From: Thermoflexus hugenholtzii JAD2
GTDB lineage: Bacteria > Chloroflexota > UBA11872 > UBA12225
DNA length: 64,000 nucleotides
Assembly (NCBI GenBank): GCA_945865725.1
Contig: CAMBEO010000002.1
Location: forward strand, 14,668-78,667
Direction of reading: 5' to 3'
A program made the position numbers and the translations under genes. The notes beneath the pieces are model-generated. The model saw only the letters and a list, made by a program, of their open reading frames with translations, searched no databases and was not told the DNA's origin. Shown one piece after another: positions 30,060 to 58,384 of the stretch (its first letter is position 1; each line of letters begins with the position of its first letter).

Positions 30060-32783
30060 ATGACCGGGGCACCGCCTCCAGCAACCGTTACCGTGACCGT
30101 CGACGGCAAGGACGTTGCCGTACCGCCGGGAACCTTGGCCGTCGAGGCGGCGCGGATGGCCGGCGTCGACGTGCCGGTGTTCTGCTATCACCCGAAGTTG
30201 TCGCTGGCCGGCGCGTGCCGTATGTGCATGTGTGAGATCGGCATGGCATCGCCGCCCGGGCAGCCCCCGCGCCCGCCGGGACTGATGACCGCGTGCACGA
30301 CCCGCGTCTCCAACGGGATGACGATCAACACCGAGGCGCCCGCCGCGCTGAAGGCGCGCGAGGGGGTGATCGAGTTCCTGCTCATCAACCATCCCCTCGA
30401 CTGCCCGGTGTGCGATGCCGGTGGCGAGTGCCCGCTGCAAGACAACAGCCACGCCTGGGGCCCCAAGGAAGGCCGCTTCACCGAGCAGAAGCGCCTGGCG
30501 CGCAAGGGCGCCGCGCTCTCCCCGCTCGTCGTCCTGGACCAGGAGCGGTGCATCGCCTGCTACCGCTGCACGCGGTTCATGGACGAGGTCCCGGGCGAGG
30601 CCGAGCTGGCGTTCTTCTCCCGGGGATTCGCCTCTGAATTGCGGACCGCCGGCGACGCGCCGATGAAGTCGCGGTTCCAGGGCAACATCATCGACCTGTG
30701 CCCGTGCGGGGCGTTGACCAGCGAGACGTACCGGTTCAAGGCGCGGCCGCAAGACCTTGACCATGCGGACAGCGTCTGCGGGCTGTGCCCCGTCGGGTGC
30801 AACGTGATCCTCGACACCCGGTCGAACCAGGTCACGCGGGTCCGTCCCCGGCAGAACGAGGCGGTCAACGAGATCTGGGTGTGCGACAAGGGGCGCTTCG
30901 CGCACCACTGGTCGTCGAGTCCCAACCGCCTCTCCGGCCCGTGGGTACGCGGGGCGGACGGCCTGCACCCGGCGACGTGGCGGCAGGCCTACCAGGAGGC
31001 GGCGCGTCGCCTCGCGGCCGTCAAGGCGGCGCACGGTGGCGGCGCCATCGGCGTGATCGGCGGCCGGAACCTGACCAACGAGGATGCCCATGCCCTCGCG
31101 CGGTTCGCCGCCGAGGTGCTCGAGACCCCGCACGTCGACTTCCGGGTCGGTGCGCAGGTTGCGGAGGCCAACCCCCTGTCCCCGTTCGGGCTGGACGCGT
31201 TCAACACCGGCCTCGACGCCGCCGAGAAGGCGGGCGCGATCCTCCTGGTCGGCACCGACGTCCACGACGAGGTGCCGGTGCAGTGGCTGCGCATCCGGAA
31301 GGGCGTGAAGGCGGGCGCGCGCCTGGTCGTGGCCGGGCCCCGGGCAACCGAGGCCGACCGCCTCGCGTTCCACCGCCTGCGCCATCGGCCCGGTTCGGAA
31401 CTTGCGCTGCTGGTGGGCATCCTTGCCGCCCTCGTCGAGTCGCCCCCGCTAGATGCCGATGGCGCGCCACGTGACCTGTCCGGCCTCGCCGCGGCAATCG
31501 GCGGGACAGGCGTCGACCAGGCCGCGGTGCACGCCGGCGTGGACGCCGTGACGATCCGCGCGGCGGCGGCGACGCTGGCCGGGGCGCGGGACCCGCTGGT
31601 GTACGTCGGGGCCAGGCTGGCGATCCGGCATGACGCGGGCGCGATCGGCATGGCGGTCGGCAACCTCGGCCGTGCCCTCGGGTACCCGGCGCGCGTGAAC
31701 TTCCTGGTCGAGGGCGCGAACGGGCGCGGCGCCGAGTGGGCCGGCCTCGTCCCGGGGCCCGGTGGCCTGCCGGCGGGACACATCATCGCGAAGGCCGCCG
31801 CGGGCGAGATCAAGGCCCTGTACGTGGTCGGCGAGAACCTCCTGGAGACGCATCCTGACGCCGCCCAGGCGCGCGAGGCGCTGGAACGCGCCGAGGTCGT
31901 CATCGTGCACGAGCTCTTCCCGACGGTGACGGCGCAGGGGGCGGACGTGGTGTTCGCGGCGACGGGCCTGATGGAGAAGGACGGCACGACCACGAGCGTC
32001 GAGGGGCGCCTGCAACGCATCTACGCGGCGGTGCACCCGCACGGATCCGACCGCGTGCCGGACTGGCGGATCCTGAGCGACCTTGCGGCGGCGATGGGCG
32101 CCGGCCTCGGGTACTCGGCCGCGTCCGAGGTCACCAAGGACCTGCTTGCGGACGTGCCGGCATACGCGTCGCTCGAGGGGAAGTTGCCCGGCAGTGCCGG
32201 GGTGCTCGTTCGCGCCGTGGCCGTGCCGGCGGCAGGTGGAGGAGGCTTCCTTACGGCCCCCTTCCATCTGCCGACAGCGCCCCGCGCCGCGGCGGGAGAG
32301 GGAAGCACCACCACCTCCCCCGGGCGGGCAAGGATGCCCGCGGACCAACGGGAGAGGGAAGCACCGCCGGCCGTACCTCCCTCTCCCGCCGCCGCGCTTG
32401 GGGCACTGGCGGCAGGTGGAGGGGCCCTCTTCCTGGTGGCAAGCCCCGAGATCGTCGGCCACGAGACCATCGTCGCCGAGACGCCCGAGCTTCTGTCGAC
32501 GGTGCCGGAGGCGTACGTGGAGGTGAACCGCGACGACGCGGCGCGCCTTGGGATCGTCGCCGGGGGACTGGTCGAGGTTCGGGGTCCCGCGGGTGCAGTC
32601 ACGCGGGTGGCCCGGGTGAACGGCCGTGTCCCGTCAGGCACCTGCTTCGCACCGGAGAACCTCGGCTCGCCCCGGATCAACGCCATCCTCCGTTGGTCGA
32701 CCGAGGTGCCCCTGGTCACGCTCCGGCCGGTGGTCGTCGAAGGCGCGGAGGCCACCGGGGCCGCCGTGGCAGGTGCCCGATGA
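30060..32783 (+). CDS. nuoG: NADH-quinone oxidoreductase subunit G (carries an in-frame repeat-derived insertion)
   Basis: 2Fe-2S CYHPKLSLAGACRMC, HPLDCPVCDAGGECPLQD, CIACYRCTRF and a molybdopterin-like domain. ATG is at 30060. Residues encoded by about 32228-32424 are repeat DNA read in frame. Confidence 0.93.
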   Translation: MTGAPPPATVTVTVDGKDVAVPPGTLAVEAARMAGVDVPVFCYHPKLSLAGACRMCMCEIGMASPPGQPPRPPGLMTACTTRVSNGMTINTEAPAALKAREGVIEFLLINHPLDCPVCDAGGECPLQDNSHAWGPKEGRFTEQKRLARKGAALSPLVVLDQERCIACYRCTRFMDEVPGEAELAFFSRGFASELRTAGDAPMKSRFQGNIIDLCPCGALTSETYRFKARPQDLDHADSVCGLCPVGCNVILDTRSNQVTRVRPRQNEAVNEIWVCDKGRFAHHWSSSPNRLSGPWVRGADGLHPATWRQAYQEAARRLAAVKAAHGGGAIGVIGGRNLTNEDAHALARFAAEVLETPHVDFRVGAQVAEANPLSPFGLDAFNTGLDAAEKAGAILLVGTDVHDEVPVQWLRIRKGVKAGARLVVAGPRATEADRLAFHRLRHRPGSELALLVGILAALVESPPLDADGAPRDLSGLAAAIGGTGVDQAAVHAGVDAVTIRAAAATLAGARDPLVYVGARLAIRHDAGAIGMAVGNLGRALGYPARVNFLVEGANGRGAEWAGLVPGPGGLPAGHIIAKAAAGEIKALYVVGENLLETHPDAAQAREALERAEVVIVHELFPTVTAQGADVVFAATGLMEKDGTTTSVEGRLQRIYAAVHPHGSDRVPDWRILSDLAAAMGAGLGYSAASEVTKDLLADVPAYASLEGKLPGSAGVLVRAVAVPAAGGGGFLTAPFHLPTAPRAAAGEGSTTTSPGRARMPADQREREAPPAVPPSPAAALGALAAGGGALFLVASPEIVGHETIVAETPELLSTVPEAYVEVNRDDAARLGIVAGGLVEVRGPAGAVTRVARVNGRVPSGTCFAPENLGSPRINAILRWSTEVPLVTLRPVVVEGAEATGAAVAGAR
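32228..32424. repeat. intragenic palindromic-repeat composite inside nuoG
   Basis: Module B(+) at 32257-32311, module D(reverse) at 32317-32349 plus a half core at 32350-32364, and module B(reverse) at 32371-32424. It is bracketed by the 15-bp direct repeat GGCGGCAGGTGGAGG (32228-32242 and 32408-32422), 180 bp apart. Confidence 0.9.
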
Positions 32784-35651: not shown

Positions 35652-37622
35652 ATGACGATGATCGACCTTCTCTGGCTTGTGCCGGTCCTGCCGCTCGCTG
35701 GCGCGGTTGCCCTCCTGGCCGGCGGGCGACGGCTCGGGCGTGGTGCCGTCGTCGCGACCGGCACCGGATCCGTGGCGCTCGCCTTCGTGGTCGCGGCTGG
35801 CGCGGTCACCGACCTGGTGGCCAACGGCCCGGCGATGCGCGGCGTGGAGGTCCACCTCTTCCCGTGGCTGGCCTGGGGCTCGGGAAGTGACGCCGTGACG
35901 GTGGCGGAGGCGGGCCTGCTGCTCGATCCGCTCTCGGCGCTGATGATCCTGGTCGTCACCGGGATCGGGACGCTGATCCACCTGTACTCCAGCGGGTACA
36001 TGGCGGGTGACGAGGGGTTCGCGCGCTATTACGCGTACCTGAACCTGTTCACCTTCTCCATGCTCGTGCTCGTGCTCGCAAACAACCTCGCGCTGCTGTT
36101 CGTCGGCTGGGAGCTCGTGGGCTTCTGCTCGTGGGCGCTGATCGGGTTCTGGTTCGAACGCAAGGCGGCGGCGGCGGCGGGCCAGAAGGCGTTCATCACG
36201 AACCGGGTCGGCGACCTCGGGGTCCTCGCGGCGCTCTTCCTGGTCTGGGCGAACTGGGGGACGTTCAGTTTCCATGCCCTCCCGGGGTCGACGTTGCCGG
36301 GCGTCCTGGACGACCCCGCGCGCGTGCTGGCCACGCCGCTGGTGGCCCTTGCCATTCCGTTGCTCCTGCTGCTCGGGGTGACGGGCAAGTCCGCCCAGAT
36401 CCCGTTGTTCACGTGGCTCCCTGACGCCATGGAGGGGCCCACGCCCGTCTCGGCGCTTATCCACGCGGCGACGATGGTGACGGGGGGCGTCTACCTGGTG
36501 GCGCGCGTGCATCCGCTCTTCGACCAGTCGCCAGAGGCGCAGCTCGTGCTTGGGACCACCGGCGCCGTGACCGCGTTCGTTGCGGCGACCATCGCGACGG
36601 TGCAGGTCGACGTCAAGCGGGTGCTGGCCTACTCGACGGTAAGCCAGCTCGGGTTCATGGTCCTCGGCCTCGGGGCGGGAGCGTACGGGGCGGCGGCCTT
36701 CCACCTGATGACCCACGCCTTTTTCAAGGCCTTGCTCTTCCTTGGCGCCGGCGCGGTCATCCATGGCGTAGCAAGCCAGCAAGACTTGCGGAAGATGGGC
36801 GGGCTGATCCGGTACATGCCGGTGACGGCTTGGACCTTCATCGTCGGGTGGCTCGCGATCATCGGCGTCCCGGGGCTTTCCGGCTTCTTCTCGAAGGACC
36901 TGATCCTCGCCCGGGCGTTCGGGAGAGGTCTCGTCGATCCTGCGTTCCTCGTCCTCTTCGGGGTGGCGCTGGTGACCGTCGGGATCACCGCCTTCTACAT
37001 GTCCCGACTGGTGTTCCTTGCGTTCCTGGGCGAGTACCGGGGCGGGTCGGTGCACCCGCACGAGGCGCCGCCCTCGATGCTGGTCCCGCTGGTGGTCCTG
37101 GCCATTGGCTCGATCGGGGCCGGGTGGGTCGGGATCCCTCCGTTCCTGCTTGGGGAAGCCGGGCATGCGACGGTGATCGAGCAGTTCCTCGCCCCCGCCA
37201 CCCTTGCGACCGGCACTTGGGAGGGCACGCTTGACCATTCCACGGAGTGGATCATCACTGGCCTCTCGGTGGCGATCACGCTCGCAGGCGCCGGGCTGGC
37301 CGGGGTGGCCTACCTGGGCGAGGGACCGATCAGCCCGGTCGTCACCGAGCTGGTCGCCCCCTTCAGGCGCCTGTTTGCCGGGCGCTGGTTCGTCGACGAG
37401 GCACACGGGGCCCTGGTCATCCGCCCGCTGGCCCGGGTGGCGTCGTTCCTCGCGTCGGTCGACGTGGGCGTCGTCGATGGCGCGGTCGCGCTCGTCGTGG
37501 CGGGGGTACGCGGCATCGGTGCGCTCCTCGCCCGGTTGCAGTCCGGGTACGTGCGGGGCTACGCGGTGACCATGCTGGTCGGCGCGGTCGCCGTCGTGGC
37601 ATCGGCGTGGGCGCTGCGATGA
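35652..37622 (+). CDS. nuoL: NADH-quinone oxidoreductase subunit L
   Basis: GWELVGFCSWALIGFW and GKSAQIPLFTWLPDAMEGPTPVSALIHAATMV. Confidence 0.95.
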   Translation: MTMIDLLWLVPVLPLAGAVALLAGGRRLGRGAVVATGTGSVALAFVVAAGAVTDLVANGPAMRGVEVHLFPWLAWGSGSDAVTVAEAGLLLDPLSALMILVVTGIGTLIHLYSSGYMAGDEGFARYYAYLNLFTFSMLVLVLANNLALLFVGWELVGFCSWALIGFWFERKAAAAAGQKAFITNRVGDLGVLAALFLVWANWGTFSFHALPGSTLPGVLDDPARVLATPLVALAIPLLLLLGVTGKSAQIPLFTWLPDAMEGPTPVSALIHAATMVTGGVYLVARVHPLFDQSPEAQLVLGTTGAVTAFVAATIATVQVDVKRVLAYSTVSQLGFMVLGLGAGAYGAAAFHLMTHAFFKALLFLGAGAVIHGVASQQDLRKMGGLIRYMPVTAWTFIVGWLAIIGVPGLSGFFSKDLILARAFGRGLVDPAFLVLFGVALVTVGITAFYMSRLVFLAFLGEYRGGSVHPHEAPPSMLVPLVVLAIGSIGAGWVGIPPFLLGEAGHATVIEQFLAPATLATGTWEGTLDHSTEWIITGLSVAITLAGAGLAGVAYLGEGPISPVVTELVAPFRRLFAGRWFVDEAHGALVIRPLARVASFLASVDVGVVDGAVALVVAGVRGIGALLARLQSGYVRGYAVTMLVGAVAVVASAWALR

Positions 37623-37735
37623 GGTGGGGCATGGTCCGCGTCCTTCCCTCTCCCGCCGCAGCGTGGGGCGCTTGCGGCAGATGGAAGGGGGCCGTCTTGG
37701 GTGGGGCATGGTCCGCGGGCATCCTTGCCCGCTCC
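37623..37735. repeat. nested repeat: module B (reverse) inside module D, in the nuoL-nuoM gap
   Basis: The 18-bp direct repeat GGTGGGGCATGGTCCGCG (37623-37640 and 37700-37717) flanks a reverse module B (37641-37690). Module D continues as GGCATCCTTGCCCGC, with hairpin GCGGGCA-TCCT-TGCCCGC at 37715-37732. Confidence 0.9.
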
Positions 37736-37791
37736 GGGATGCTGGGTGACGTGCGGGCTTTGGTGGGCCGGCAGGATCGGGTGAGGCTCAC

Positions 37792-39324
37792 GTGAACGGA
37801 CTGCCACTGATCTCGATCATGCTCGCCGTGCCACTGCTTGGCGCGGCGTGGACGCTCGCCGGCGGGGCAGGCGCCCGGTGGATCGGCATGCTGGCGGCGG
37901 GCGCGACGTTTGCCCTGTCCGCCGCGCTGTGGGTGGGCCACGTGCCGGGCGGGCCCGCATTCCAGTTCGAGGAACGCGTCGCATGGTTGCCTGACCTCGG
38001 GATCAGCTACCACGTGGGGATCGACGGCGTGAGCCTGCTCCTCGCGCTGCTGACGACGGTGTTCGTGCCGATCGCGCTGGTCGCGTCCGCCACGACGGTC
38101 ACCACCCGGGTCCGGGAGTTCGTCGCGCTCGTGCTCGTGCTCGAGTTCGCGATCCTCGGGGCCCTGGTCTCGCTCGACCTCTTCGGCTTCTACGTGTTCT
38201 TCGAGCTCATGCTCGTGCCGACGTTCCTGCTCGTCGGGATCTGGGGCGGGGCACGACGCGCGGCGGCGGCGATGCAGTTCTTCCTGTACACGATGGTCGG
38301 GAGCGTTGCGATGCTCGTGGGGATCATCGCCCTCGGCCGGTCGCGCGGGACCTTCGACTACGTCGAACTGCAGGCGTCGCTGGCAAGGCCTGGTGGCGCG
38401 CTTTCGGGCACCGACGAGATGTGGCTGTTCGTGGCCTTCGCCCTCGCCTTCGCGATCAAGGTCCCGCTCGTCCCGATGCACTCGTGGCTGCCGGAGGCGT
38501 ACGTGCAGGCCCCGCTTCCGGTCACCGTCCTGATGTCGTCGGTGATGGTGAAGGTCGGCGCCTACGGGTTCCTTCGCTTCTGCCTCGGGCTGTTCCCCGG
38601 TGCCGCGCAGGAGGCAAGCTGGGTGGTTGCGCTCCTCGCCACCATCGGGATCGTCTACGGCGCACTGGTGGCGTCCCGGCAGCGGGACTTGAAGCGGCTG
38701 GTCGCCTGGTCGTCGATCAGCCACCTCGGGTTCGTGATGCTCGGCTTGGTCGCGGCGACGACGGAAGCGATCCAAGGCAGCGTGATCCAGATGGTCAACC
38801 ATGGCGTGTCGACGGGAGCCCTGTTCCTGCTCGTCGGCATGCTTCACGAGCGGGCGCGCACGTGGGCCATCGACCAGTTTGGCGGCGTGGCACGTGCGAT
38901 GCCGGCCTTTGGGGCGGCGCTGGTGCTCGTCGTGTTCTCGTCGGCGGGGCTGCCATTCACGAACGGGTTCACGGGCGAGTTCCTGATCCTCATCGGGACG
39001 TTCCGCTCGCCCGCGACGCACCTGCAGGCCTTCGCCATCGTCGGGGCGACCGGCGTGGTCCTCGGTGCGCTGTACCTGCTGCGGATGTACCGGAAGGTCA
39101 TGCAGGGACCCGTCAACCCGGCGTTCATCTCGCCCGGAGGTGACGGTCCCCAACGCGTCACGATCGCGGACTTGACAGGGCGCGAGGCGTGCCTGCTCGC
39201 ACCGCTGGCCGTGCTGATCTTCTGGATCGGCGTGTATCCGAAGCCGTTCCTCGACCAGACTGCACCAGCGGCCCGGACGGTCGCCGCTGCCGTGGGCGGC
39301 GAGGCGGGCAAGGCACCGCGCTAG
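37792..39324 (+). CDS. nuoM: NADH-quinone oxidoreductase subunit M
   Basis: ND4-like: KVPLVPMHSWLPEAYVQAPLPVTVLMSSVMVKVGAYGFLRF; GTG start at 37792. Confidence 0.94.
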   Translation: MNGLPLISIMLAVPLLGAAWTLAGGAGARWIGMLAAGATFALSAALWVGHVPGGPAFQFEERVAWLPDLGISYHVGIDGVSLLLALLTTVFVPIALVASATTVTTRVREFVALVLVLEFAILGALVSLDLFGFYVFFELMLVPTFLLVGIWGGARRAAAAMQFFLYTMVGSVAMLVGIIALGRSRGTFDYVELQASLARPGGALSGTDEMWLFVAFALAFAIKVPLVPMHSWLPEAYVQAPLPVTVLMSSVMVKVGAYGFLRFCLGLFPGAAQEASWVVALLATIGIVYGALVASRQRDLKRLVAWSSISHLGFVMLGLVAATTEAIQGSVIQMVNHGVSTGALFLLVGMLHERARTWAIDQFGGVARAMPAFGAALVLVVFSSAGLPFTNGFTGEFLILIGTFRSPATHLQAFAIVGATGVVLGALYLLRMYRKVMQGPVNPAFISPGGDGPQRVTIADLTGREACLLAPLAVLIFWIGVYPKPFLDQTAPAARTVAAAVGGEAGKAPR

Positions 39325-58279: not shown

Positions 58280-58313
58280 CACCCGACGCACGCTTCCTAG
58301 GTCCGCGTCCGTC

Positions 58314-58384
58314 ACCCCCCTCTCCCGCTGGGCGGGGGAAGGGCAGGAGGTGGGGGTTGGTCCGCGGGCATCCCTGCCCGCCCT
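58314..58384. repeat. degenerate core + module D
   Basis: CCCCCCTCTCCCGCTGGGCGGGGGAAGGG is a reverse-type core, followed by GGAGGTGGGGGTTGGTCCGCGGGCATCCCTGCCCGCCC (module D, hairpin GCGGGCA-TCCC-TGCCCGC). Confidence 0.7.

What the first reader, a model, noticed from the sequence alone, without database searches (positions are those of the whole stretch)
37623..37735. Nested repeat: module B appears inserted into module D with an 18-bp flanking direct duplication
GGTGGGGCATGGTCCGCG occurs at 37623-37640 and 37700-37717. Between the two copies lies a complete reverse module B (37641-37690) plus 9 nt. After the second copy, module D simply continues (GGCATCCTTGCCCGC), as it does in the uninterrupted D copy at 58348-58384. 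The simplest reading is that one element integrated into another with duplication of the target, which would be direct evidence of past mobility or templated insertion. Local replication slippage is the alternative.
Basis: seen in the sequence. Interest (0 to 1): 0.6.

Follow-up and report, generated by a model that had tools for sequence, protein, structure and literature searches.

The report
Hairpin repeat nested inside REP element
In the gap between two respiratory-complex genes of an uncultured lake Chloroflexota bacterium, a young hairpin repeat sits inside an older transposase-linked repeat and is bracketed by a locally made 18-base duplication; this is a real footprint of one repeat being copied into another, but not the regular signature of a cut-and-paste transposon.

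Summary
GGTGGGGCATGGTCCGCG stands at 37623-37640 and 37700-37717, a complete B hairpin unit lies between the copies, and module D continues after the second copy.

**What the modules are**
- The site is the nuoL-nuoM spacer. It is empty in the two same-genus genomes.
- D is a REP-type element. In a same-genus genome, a REP-associated tyrosine transposase gene is flanked by inverted D copies.
- B is a BoxC-like hairpin found only in this genome: 63 copies against 0 in 20 relatives.

**Is the duplication local?** Yes. This head variant occurs nowhere else among 245 D cores. Removing 77 nt restores a D element 96% identical to other copies.

**Is it a transposon-type target duplication?** No.
- Only 3 of about 75 B loci show a flanking duplication, of 18, 18-23 and 41 nt.
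- Duplications around other modules range from 15 to 30 nt.
- Their left ends sit on G-runs shared with the end of the insert.
- B also replaces, or fuses to, D without any duplication.

**Best reading:** copy-choice (template switching) at stalled hairpins, with re-entry upstream of the stall. No sister strain or empty-site allele was available, so the mechanism is inferred.

Moderately interesting: a new variant of known REP/BIME/BoxC mosaics.

The parts
35652..37622 (+). nuoL (NADH dehydrogenase subunit L), stop TGA at 37620-37622, directly abutting the first 18-mer
   Evidence: ORF list. The C-terminal 240 aa find NuoL-type loci in Chloroflexota MAGs at 72-73% identity. DNA homology to same-genus genomes runs up to the stop codon.
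37623..37640 (+). 18-mer copy 1 (GGTGGGGCATGGTCCGCG): a truncated head of D, broken after TGGTCCGCG at the foot of the REP stem
   Evidence: Exact match. Private variant. The left junction is confirmed in Logan contigs of 4 runs.
37641..37699 (+). One B unit: a BoxC-like extended hairpin (arms 37642-37656 and 37674-37688) plus its trailer CCGTCTTGG (37691-37699)
   Evidence: The family has 63-73 copies in this genome and none in 20 relatives.
37700..37717 (+). 18-mer copy 2: the head of the intact D-long element
37709..37732 (+). REP core of D (TGGTCCGCGGGCATCCTTGCCCGC): conserved head TGGTCC, stem GCGGGCA 37715-37721, loop TCCT 37722-37725, stem TGCCCGC 37726-37732
   Evidence: Fold. 118 near-exact copies in G000 and 6-26 in six relatives. 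The same core, inverted, flanks a RAYT gene in same-genus G002.
37733..37770 (+). 3' part of D-long (TCCGGGATGCTGGGTGACGTGCGGGCTTTGGTGGGC), colinear with other D-long copies
37792..39324 (+). nuoM, GTG start. In same-genus genomes it follows nuoL within about 0-9 nt, so the whole 169-nt repeat-filled spacer is lineage-specific.
58300..58384 (+). Parallel arrangement: GGTCCGCG + BoxC-like hairpin (TCCGTCACCCCCCTCTCCCGCTGGGCGGGGGAAGGGCAGGA) + GGTGGGGGTTGGTCCGCG + rest of the REP core. Only an 8-nt repeat, with no private variant.

Best explanation
**The event.** The nuoL-nuoM spacer first acquired a fragment of a REP-bearing element (D-long). Its 24-nt core is the REP of a RAYT-type tyrosine transposase system present in this genus. 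Later, one unit of B, a young genome-specific BoxC-like hairpin family, was copied into D-long at the foot of the REP hairpin, right after TGGTCCGCG.

**Likely mechanism: copy-choice (template switching) during DNA synthesis.**
1. The growing strand stalls at the REP stem.
2. It switches by a few bases of microhomology (GCG/CGTCC) to a B template and copies B with its trailer.
3. It re-anneals to the original template through the G-run (GGTGGGG) that ends most modules and also begins D-long.
4. It therefore re-copies the first 18 nt of D-long.

Re-entry upstream gives a duplication. Re-entry downstream gives a replacement or a chimera. Both outcomes are seen elsewhere in the genome.

**Shown:** the anatomy, the privacy of the duplicate, the relative ages of B and D, the D-RAYT link in a congener, and the spectrum of outcomes.

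**Inferred:** the order of events at this locus and the template-switch mechanism.
For: **The duplicate is private**
- The exact 18-mer occurs only twice in the genome, and the CA head variant is unique among 245 D cores.
- Removing 77 nt gives a D-long element 69/72 identical to C16:9559.

**B is younger than D**
- B has 63 copies here and 0 in 20 relatives. The D core is shared with the genus and with a second genus.
- Same-genus genomes have nuoL and nuoM abutting.

**D is a REP**
- In G002, an ORF scores 90.7 bits on NF047646, REP-associated tyrosine transposase (cut-off 80).
- D in forward orientation lies just upstream of that ORF and D in reverse orientation lies downstream.

**There is no regular target duplication**
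- Only 2 of 73 strict B copies have private flanking repeats. The C5 array is a third case.
- The lengths are 18, 18-23 and 41 nt.
- Genome-wide, 13 clean X-module-X events have repeats of 16-55 nt.

**The left ends of the duplications lie on G-runs identical to the end of the insert** (GGTGGGG, GGGGTC, GGGGG).

**Non-duplicating outcomes of the same kind exist**
- B replaces the REP hairpin inside the D-long frame at C13:4060.
- D/B and D/A chimeras break D after 9, 12, 15-16 or 17 nt, all within the stem-loop.

**Other points**
- Neighbouring modules are co-oriented 178 to 20, as expected for strand-wise copying.
- A and D copies have flanking repeats of 14 nt or more 5-10 times more often than shuffled pairs, so local re-copying is common here.
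Against: - No empty-site or B-free allele was found, so the ancestral state at this locus is inferred.
- Microhomologies of 2-7 nt in a 70% G+C, G-run-rich repeat landscape are weak evidence on their own.
- One event, C43:4711/4773, is a single REP core bracketed by a perfect 30-nt duplication of unique DNA. It looks like a classical staggered-cut insertion and needs no shared G-run.
- A break at exactly TGGTCCGCG| recurs in several loci. This could point to an enzyme-made nick rather than to polymerase stalling.
- The genome is an 85%-complete MAG, and its own bin holds no RAYT gene.
Confidence: 0.5

Rival explanations
1. **True transposition-type integration.** B, or the machinery that moves it, was inserted at a staggered double-strand cut 18 nt wide. 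Gap filling then produced a genuine target-site duplication.
For: - X-B-X-rest-of-D is what a staggered-cut insertion gives in a single step.
- Two further B loci and several D loci show private flanking repeats.
- The cleanest is C43:4711/4773, a 30-nt duplication of unique DNA around one REP core, confirmed in contigs of three runs.
- The break after TGGTCCGCG recurs.
- REP hairpins are known insertion targets for some IS elements. This rests on established knowledge (IS1397-type elements) and was not tested here.
Against: - 67 of 73 B copies lack any flanking repeat of 11 nt or more, although the copies are young and little diverged.
- Duplication lengths vary from 15 to 41 nt.
- The duplications start at the host element's own head.
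- No IS with B-like ends was found, and no Y1 transposase is in the bin.
- IS200/IS605-type enzymes make no sizeable target duplications (PMC2817692).
- Replacement and chimera outcomes are not expected from a staggered cut.
Confidence: 0.2
2. **Two steps, no target duplication.** D-long was first duplicated in tandem, as it is at C44, C17 and C37. B then replaced most of the first copy, from position 19 up to the head of the second copy. The replacement happened by the same copy-choice or recombination, but with re-entry downstream.
For: - Tandem D-long arrays exist, with periods of 98-119 nt and identical heads.
- B replaces part of D-long at C13.
- This route gives exactly the observed sequence and explains why the repeat starts at the head of D-long.
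Against: - It needs two events and a replacement that ends precisely at the next head.
- No remnant of the first copy's 3' part is left.
- The C61 and C43 events have hosts that are not known to be tandem.
Confidence: 0.2
3. **Chance juxtaposition or artefact.** Either two independently arrived D heads happen to flank a B unit, or the metagenome assembler produced the structure.
For: - The genome holds hundreds of interchangeable modules, so many juxtapositions occur.
- The stretch 37673-37708 is not spanned by a long Logan contig.
Against: - The head variant GGTGGGGCA is otherwise absent from the genome, about 1 in 26 to 1 in 245 under independence.
- An 18-nt repeat is shorter than assembler k-mers.
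- The left junction is identical in four runs of three studies, and the right junction has single-copy depth.
Confidence: 0.05

Closest known systems
REP / BIME elements and REPIN-RAYT systems (E. coli, Pseudomonas; Nunvar 2010, PMC2817692; Bertels and Rainey 2011, PMC3116915)
   Same: - D is a short G+C-rich imperfect palindrome with a conserved 5' head.
- It has more than 100 mostly extragenic copies and is mixed with other motifs in mosaics.
- In a congener the same core, in inverted orientation, brackets a RAYT gene.
[quoted passage not shown]
   Different: - Copies here are head-to-tail, not inverted doublets (D-D 44 same against 4 opposite).
- No RAYT gene is in this genome's bin.
- The head is TGGTCC rather than GTAG.
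- The nested partner is not a REP but a BoxC-like hairpin.
- The REP/RAYT papers consulted here (PMC2817692, PMC3116915) do not mention long private flanking duplications around REPs.
BoxC / PIT / TM_ECO intrastrand-triplex repeats of E. coli (Holder 2015, PMC4666352)
   Same: - Module A (CCCTCTCCC-N8-GGGGGAGGG-ACT-GAGGGTGGGGG) follows the TM_ECO pattern CCCTCNCCC N3-6 GGGNGAGGG N3 GGGNGAGGG almost exactly.
- B shares its first arm.
- Like TM_ECO, the elements are intergenic and highly conserved, have no linked transposase, and are associated with local variability.
   Different: - B has a different, longer second half (GYGGGGCGCTTGCGGCMRATGGAAGGGGG).
- Copy numbers are far higher.
- Units are strongly co-oriented and fused with REPs.
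MITEs with target-site duplications (for example Correia/NEMIS, RUP, IS-derived MITEs)
   Same: A short hairpin-forming non-coding unit bracketed by a direct repeat of host sequence.
   Different: - MITE duplications are short and of fixed length, and are found at most copies. Here 18-41 nt duplications occur at 3 of about 75 loci.
- No terminal inverted repeats match an IS in this genome.
Microhomology-mediated template switching at DNA secondary structures (FoSTeS/MMBIR-type events; quasipalindrome template switching in E. coli; review PMC12708500)
   Same: - Breakpoints lie inside hairpins.
- Junctions have a few bases of homology.
- Templated insertions come with either duplication or deletion of nearby sequence.
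   Different: - These are usually described for larger rearrangements or for inverted templates.
- Use as the routine generator of a bacterial repeat mosaic has not been demonstrated.

Membership tests
REP / RAYT system (module D) | Short (20-40 nt) imperfect palindrome, high copy number, mostly extragenic | tested here: met
   The core TGGTCCGCGGGCATCCYTGCCCGC has a 7-bp stem and a 4-nt loop. There are 118 copies at up to 1 mismatch and 185 copies of GGTCCGCGGGC.
REP / RAYT system (module D) | A cognate RAYT gene (Y1 HUH transposase) flanked by copies of the REP | tested here: inconclusive
   Met in same-genus G002: 90.7 bits on NF047646 (cut-off 80), with D forward upstream and D reverse downstream. 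Not met in G000 itself: no PF01797 hit and tblastn E above 1. The MAG is 85% complete.
REP / RAYT system (module D) | REPs organised as inverted doublets (REPINs, BIME-1-like units) | tested here: not met
   Adjacent D-D pairs within 120 nt: 44 in the same orientation, 4 opposite. All module pairs: 178 against 20.
REP / RAYT system (module D) | Conserved short guide sequence 5' of the hairpin foot (GTAG in enterobacteria) | tested here: inconclusive
   A conserved TGGTCC precedes the stem in this and related genomes. Whether it guides cleavage cannot be tested with these tools.
Transposon-derived MITE (module B) | Target-site duplication of fixed length at most copies | tested here: not met
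   Only 2 of 73 strict copies have a private flanking repeat. Repeats of 12 nt or more: 6.8% of copies against 3.3% in the control. Lengths are 18, 18-23 and 41 nt.
Transposon-derived MITE (module B) | Terminal inverted repeats shared with a full-length IS in the same or a related genome | tested here: not met
   B is one long hairpin. A search for B arms 0.3-4 kb apart gave only 6 loose hits with other tails. Relatives have no B at all.
BoxC / TM_ECO triplex-motif repeats (modules A and B) | Motif CCCTCNCCC N3-6 GGGNGAGGG N3 GGGNGAGGG (PMC4666352) | tested here: inconclusive
   By eye, A fits except for an 8-nt first loop. B has only the first arm. No motif search or structure test was done here.
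IS200/IS605-type single-strand 'peel and paste' insertion | Insertion 3' of a fixed tetra- or pentanucleotide without target duplication | tested here: not met
   At this locus an 18-nt duplication is present. The recurring break after TGGTCCGCG could be such a site, but cleavage cannot be tested here.

The most novel reading that the evidence does not exclude
REP and BoxC-like hairpin units in this lineage may spread by a strand-specific copy-paste process coupled to the replication fork.
- It would possibly be started by a nick at the foot of the REP hairpin, after TGGTCCGCG.
- Its footprint would be either a long duplication of variable length (15-41 nt) or a replacement of host sequence.

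The nuoL-nuoM locus, C61, C5 and the 30-nt duplication around a lone REP at C43 would then be the first sequence-level footprints of how such repeats multiply. That question remains open for REP, BIME and BoxC elements.
Probability: 0.2. Interest if true: 0.65.

Novelty: new variant of a known kind. Interest (0 to 1): 0.38.

Why it matters
**The open question.** How REP, BIME and BoxC-type repeats multiply is still unsettled. RAYT-type enzymes leave no target duplications, and BoxC has no known enzyme.

**What this genome offers.** It is a dense, recent burst, in which B is absent from congeners. It preserves junctions of several kinds:
- insertion with a long duplication;
- replacement;
- chimeras broken inside the REP stem-loop.

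Together these point to copying errors at hairpins, rather than classical transposition, as the source of the mosaic.

**Local consequence.** A 169-nt structured spacer now separates nuoL from nuoM, which abut in relatives. This may affect mRNA processing or translational coupling in the complex I operon.

Tried and rejected
1. **Empty-site comparison.**
   - The same-genus genomes G001 and G002 are only about 69% identical in DNA and lack all repeats between nuoL and nuoM.
   - Scans of genome contigs and metagenome contigs with the NuoL C-terminus found nothing closer than 72-73% amino-acid identity.
2. **Population alleles.** Logan contigs of four to five lake runs show only the assembled allele and no joint 37640->37718. 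Contigs drop rare variants, so absence is not shown.
3. **An unresolved joint.** A joint 37667->37709 at genome-like depth in two runs at 90% likeness disappeared at 97%. I treat it as a contig from another B-D locus.
4. **Rfam.** The only hit was a chance miRNA match at E = 0.026, far below its gathering score.
5. **An IS with B-like ends.** None was found.
6. **A RAYT gene in the window's own genome.** None was found. A third Y1 gene in G001:C206 has no D flanks and looks unrelated.
7. **A genome-wide 12-mer frequency map.** It was useless at 70% G+C because the threshold was too low.
8. **Empty site for the C43 30-nt duplication.** The non-coding flank is not alignable in relatives.
9. **Plain tandem slippage for X-B-X.** Rejected, because one tandem duplication cannot place unlike sequences after the two copies.

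Full report
**1. The observation**

The 18-mer GGTGGGGCATGGTCCGCG is exact at 37623-37640 and 37700-37717. The first copy begins immediately after the TGA stop of nuoL (35652-37622). nuoM starts with GTG at 37792.

Between the copies lies one B unit, 37641-37699.
- It is a long imperfect hairpin with arms 37642-37656 and 37674-37688.
A strict count finds it in 17 of 73 B copies.

After the second copy the sequence runs on as a 72-nt 'D-long' element. 37700-37770 is 69/72 identical to the copy at C16:9559 and colinear with those at C59, C37, C44 and C5. Removing 77 nt (B plus one 18-mer) therefore restores a canonical element.

**2. The organism and the repeat landscape**

The window is C2:14668-78667 of a 2.30-Mb, 106-contig MAG with 70% G+C, estimated 85% complete.
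- Its NuoL C-terminus is closest, at 72-73% identity, to freshwater Chloroflexota MAGs, some labelled Thermoflexus.
- The same sequence is present in lake-water metagenomes of three studies.

The genome is full of short G+C-rich modules joined head to tail.
- **A:** CTTCCCTCTCCCGCCGCAGCGGGGGAGGGACTGAGGGTGGGGG. Its core 12-mers occur about 200-340 times.
- **B:** 63-73 copies.
- **R:** CGCGTACGCGGATAACGATGG.
- **D:** core TGGTCCGCGGGCATCCYTGCCCGC, 118 near-exact copies.

Neighbouring modules within 120 nt are co-oriented 178 times against 20 (D-D 44 against 4).

**3. What D is**

The D core is a 7-bp stem with a 4-nt loop, preceded by a conserved TGGTCC. It is shared with both same-genus genomes (6 and 24 copies) and with four genomes of a second genus (11-26 copies). 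It is absent from other genera of the family and from the neighbouring family.

Both same-genus genomes encode Y1 transposases.
- The G002:C366 ORF scores 90.7 bits on NCBIfam NF047646, REP-associated tyrosine transposase (cut-off 80).
- GGTCCGCGGGCATCCCTGCCCGC lies just upstream of its start. The reverse complement (GCGGGCACGGATGCCCGCGGACCA) lies downstream of its stop. This is the classical RAYT/REP arrangement (PMC2817692, PMC3116915).
- A second RAYT type, in G001:C253 and G002:C413, is flanked by a sister hairpin GCGGGCGTCTCGCCCGC.

The window's own genome has no RAYT in its bin.

D-long is itself an inner part of a roughly 300-nt element with terminal inverted repeats CATCTGTCCCAAC, for example C16:9471-9764. 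Only the inner 72-90 nt are present at the nuoL-nuoM site.

**4. What B is, and its age**

B shares its first arm with A. A follows the BoxC/TM_ECO pattern CCCTCNCCC N3-6 GGGNGAGGG N3 GGGNGAGGG of PMC4666352 almost exactly.

B's 31-nt core occurs 63 times in this genome at up to 3 mismatches, 37 of them exact. It does not occur at all in 20 relatives, including the two congeners.

B is therefore a recent, lineage-specific burst and D is older. This agrees with B having entered D. The whole 169-nt spacer is also lineage-specific, since nuoL and nuoM abut in G001 and G002.

**5. Is the 18-mer pair a local duplication?**

Yes.
- The exact 18-mer occurs only twice in the genome.
- Of 245 D cores, 26 have a GGTGGGGNN head, and only this locus has NN = CA.
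- Two random heads of that class are identical with probability 0.09, and two random D copies with probability 0.012.

Assembly error is unlikely.
- 18 nt is below assembler k-mer sizes.
- The left junction is identical in Logan contigs of four runs.
- The right junction has single-copy depth in two runs.

**6. Is it a regular target-site duplication?**

No.

*B copies.* Among 73 strictly defined B copies, 67 share no flank-to-flank string of 11 nt or more. Of the six that do, four merely reflect the next module's leader.
- The two remaining, private cases are this locus and C61:4734/4812.
- At C61, B sits inside an R module. It is bracketed by CAGTGGACGCGTACGCGG (18 nt, or 23 with a G-run), and R continues after the second copy.
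- The fraction with a repeat of 12 nt or more (6.8%) is barely above shuffled left/right pairs (3.3%).
A perfect 41-nt repeat is the head and hairpin of a rare D variant. It brackets a linker, three B units and an R tail, and D-long continues after the second copy.

*Other modules.* Private X-module-X events have repeats of 15-30 nt.
- The cleanest is a lone REP core at C43:4711/4773. It lies between two perfect 30-nt copies of otherwise unique DNA and is confirmed in contigs of three runs.
- A and D copies have flanking repeats of 14 nt or more in 14-15% of cases, against 2-3% for shuffled pairs. Most of these are tandem arrays of module plus locus-specific linker, as described for REPIN clusters (PMC3116915).

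**7. Clues to the mechanism**

- **(a) Variable length.** Duplication lengths range from 15 to 41 nt.
- **(b) G-run boundaries.** In the three B cases the left end of the duplication is a G-run identical to the end of the insert: ...CCGTCTTG|GGTGGGG, ...GATGGT|GGGGTC, ...GATGGA|GGGGG. In two of them this is also the very head of D-long. A staggered cut has no reason to start there. Re-annealing by homology does.
- **(c) Break point.** The right end lies at the foot of, or inside, a hairpin or palindrome (TGGTCCGCG|GGCA; CGCGTACGCGG|).
- **(d) Outcomes without duplication.**
  - At C13:4060, B replaces the REP hairpin within an otherwise intact D-long frame.
  - At C67, B is fused to D after 17 nt.
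  - Recurrent D/A chimeras break D after 12 or 15-16 nt.
- **(e) Recurrent break.** Breaks after exactly TGGTCCGCG recur at this locus, at window 58300, at C1:47084 and at C7:2483. A bare TGGTCCGCG also stands downstream of the G002 RAYT gene.
- **(f) Strand bias.** Modules are strongly co-oriented.

Points a-d and f fit copy-choice at stalled hairpins, with upstream re-entry giving a duplication and downstream re-entry giving a replacement. Point e and the C43 case keep an enzyme-made nick or a staggered cut alive as a rival.

A two-step route gives the same sequence and cannot be excluded without an outgroup: a tandem D-long duplication, as seen at C44, C17 and C37, followed by replacement of the first copy by B.

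**8. Comparison with what is known**

- D behaves like a REP of a RAYT system. However, its copies are head-to-tail rather than inverted doublets, and no RAYT is in this bin.
- A and B resemble BoxC/TM_ECO.
- IS200/IS605-type enzymes make no sizeable target duplications (PMC2817692).
- The REP/RAYT papers consulted here (PMC2817692, PMC3116915) do not mention long, variable private duplications around single REP or BoxC-like units, or hairpin 'cassette' replacement inside a constant frame.

I therefore rate the finding a new variant of a known kind.

**9. Verdict**

- The mechanism is inferred with confidence about 0.5. The decisive data would be sister strains or minority alleles in raw or long reads.

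Noticed in passing
G000 C43:4711-4802 (locus L141:812-903): A single REP core (tggccTGGTCCGCGGGCATCCTTGCCCGCccc, 32 nt) lies between two perfect 30-nt copies of otherwise unique DNA (GCCGTCACCCGTCGCCCTGAACCGCACTGG), with unlike outer flanks. It is the cleanest 'insertion with long duplication' in the genome. Both junctions are confirmed in Logan contigs of three runs.
   Followed up: partly
G000 C61:4734-4834 (locus L142): A second B unit nested in another module (R, CGCGTACGCGGATAACGATGG). It has a private flanking repeat of 18 nt (23 with a G-run), and R continues after the second copy.
   Followed up: partly
G000 C5:37120-37560, minus strand (locus L143): A perfect 41-nt repeat, the head and hairpin of a rare D variant (TGGTCTCGCGGGTGAAAGACCTTGCCCGC), brackets three 66-nt B units. 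D-long continues only after the second copy.
   Followed up: partly
G000 C13:4020-4180: Inside an otherwise intact D-long frame, the REP hairpin is replaced by a B unit without any duplication. D-long frames carry at least four alternative hairpin 'cassettes': D, GGCAACCGCGTCCCC, the TGAAAGACC variant, and B.
   Followed up: partly
G000 C16:9471-9764; C19:5415-5709; C7:2522-2839: A roughly 300-nt element with terminal inverted repeats CATCTGTCCCAAC (13 ends found). It contains D-long in its interior and is MITE-like. Module D of the finding is a fragment of it.
   Followed up: partly
whole genome G000: Neighbouring repeat modules within 120 nt are co-oriented 178 to 20 (D-D 44 to 4). This is unlike the alternating REPs of BIMEs and REPINs.
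   Followed up: yes
G002:C366 (L138:200-1100) and G001:C253 / G002:C413 (L134, L140): Same-genus genomes carry two RAYT types. Each is flanked by its own REP hairpin (GCGGGCATCCCTGCCCGC or GCGGGCGTCTCGCCCGC). The window's genome has the REPs in far higher number but no RAYT in its bin.
   Followed up: partly
window 58300-58384: GGTCCGCG + a BoxC-like hairpin + GGTGGGGGTTGGTCCGCG + the rest of the REP: the same layout as the finding but with only an 8-nt repeat. GGTCCGCGTCC in a repeat context occurs only at these two loci.
   Followed up: partly
window 32228-32422: GGCGGCAGGTGGAGG stands at 32228-32242 and 32408-32422 around a repeat composite inside nuoG. The second copy is part of a B-like 3' arm, so its status as a target duplication is doubtful.
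   Followed up: partly
window 37667/37709 in runs X1, X2: At 90% likeness, one contig per run at genome-like depth joins 37667 to 37709 (skips 41, 'between: not known'). It is not seen at 97%. It is probably another B-D locus but is unresolved.
   Followed up: partly
G000 C67 minus strand ~3929; C7, C8, C52, C67; C29, C58, C96: Recurrent chimeras in which D is broken after 17 nt (fused to B), after 12 nt (fused to A with leader GGTGGTG), or after 15-16 nt (fused to A with leader AGTCCTT). Some look like composite sub-families that spread as units.
   Followed up: no
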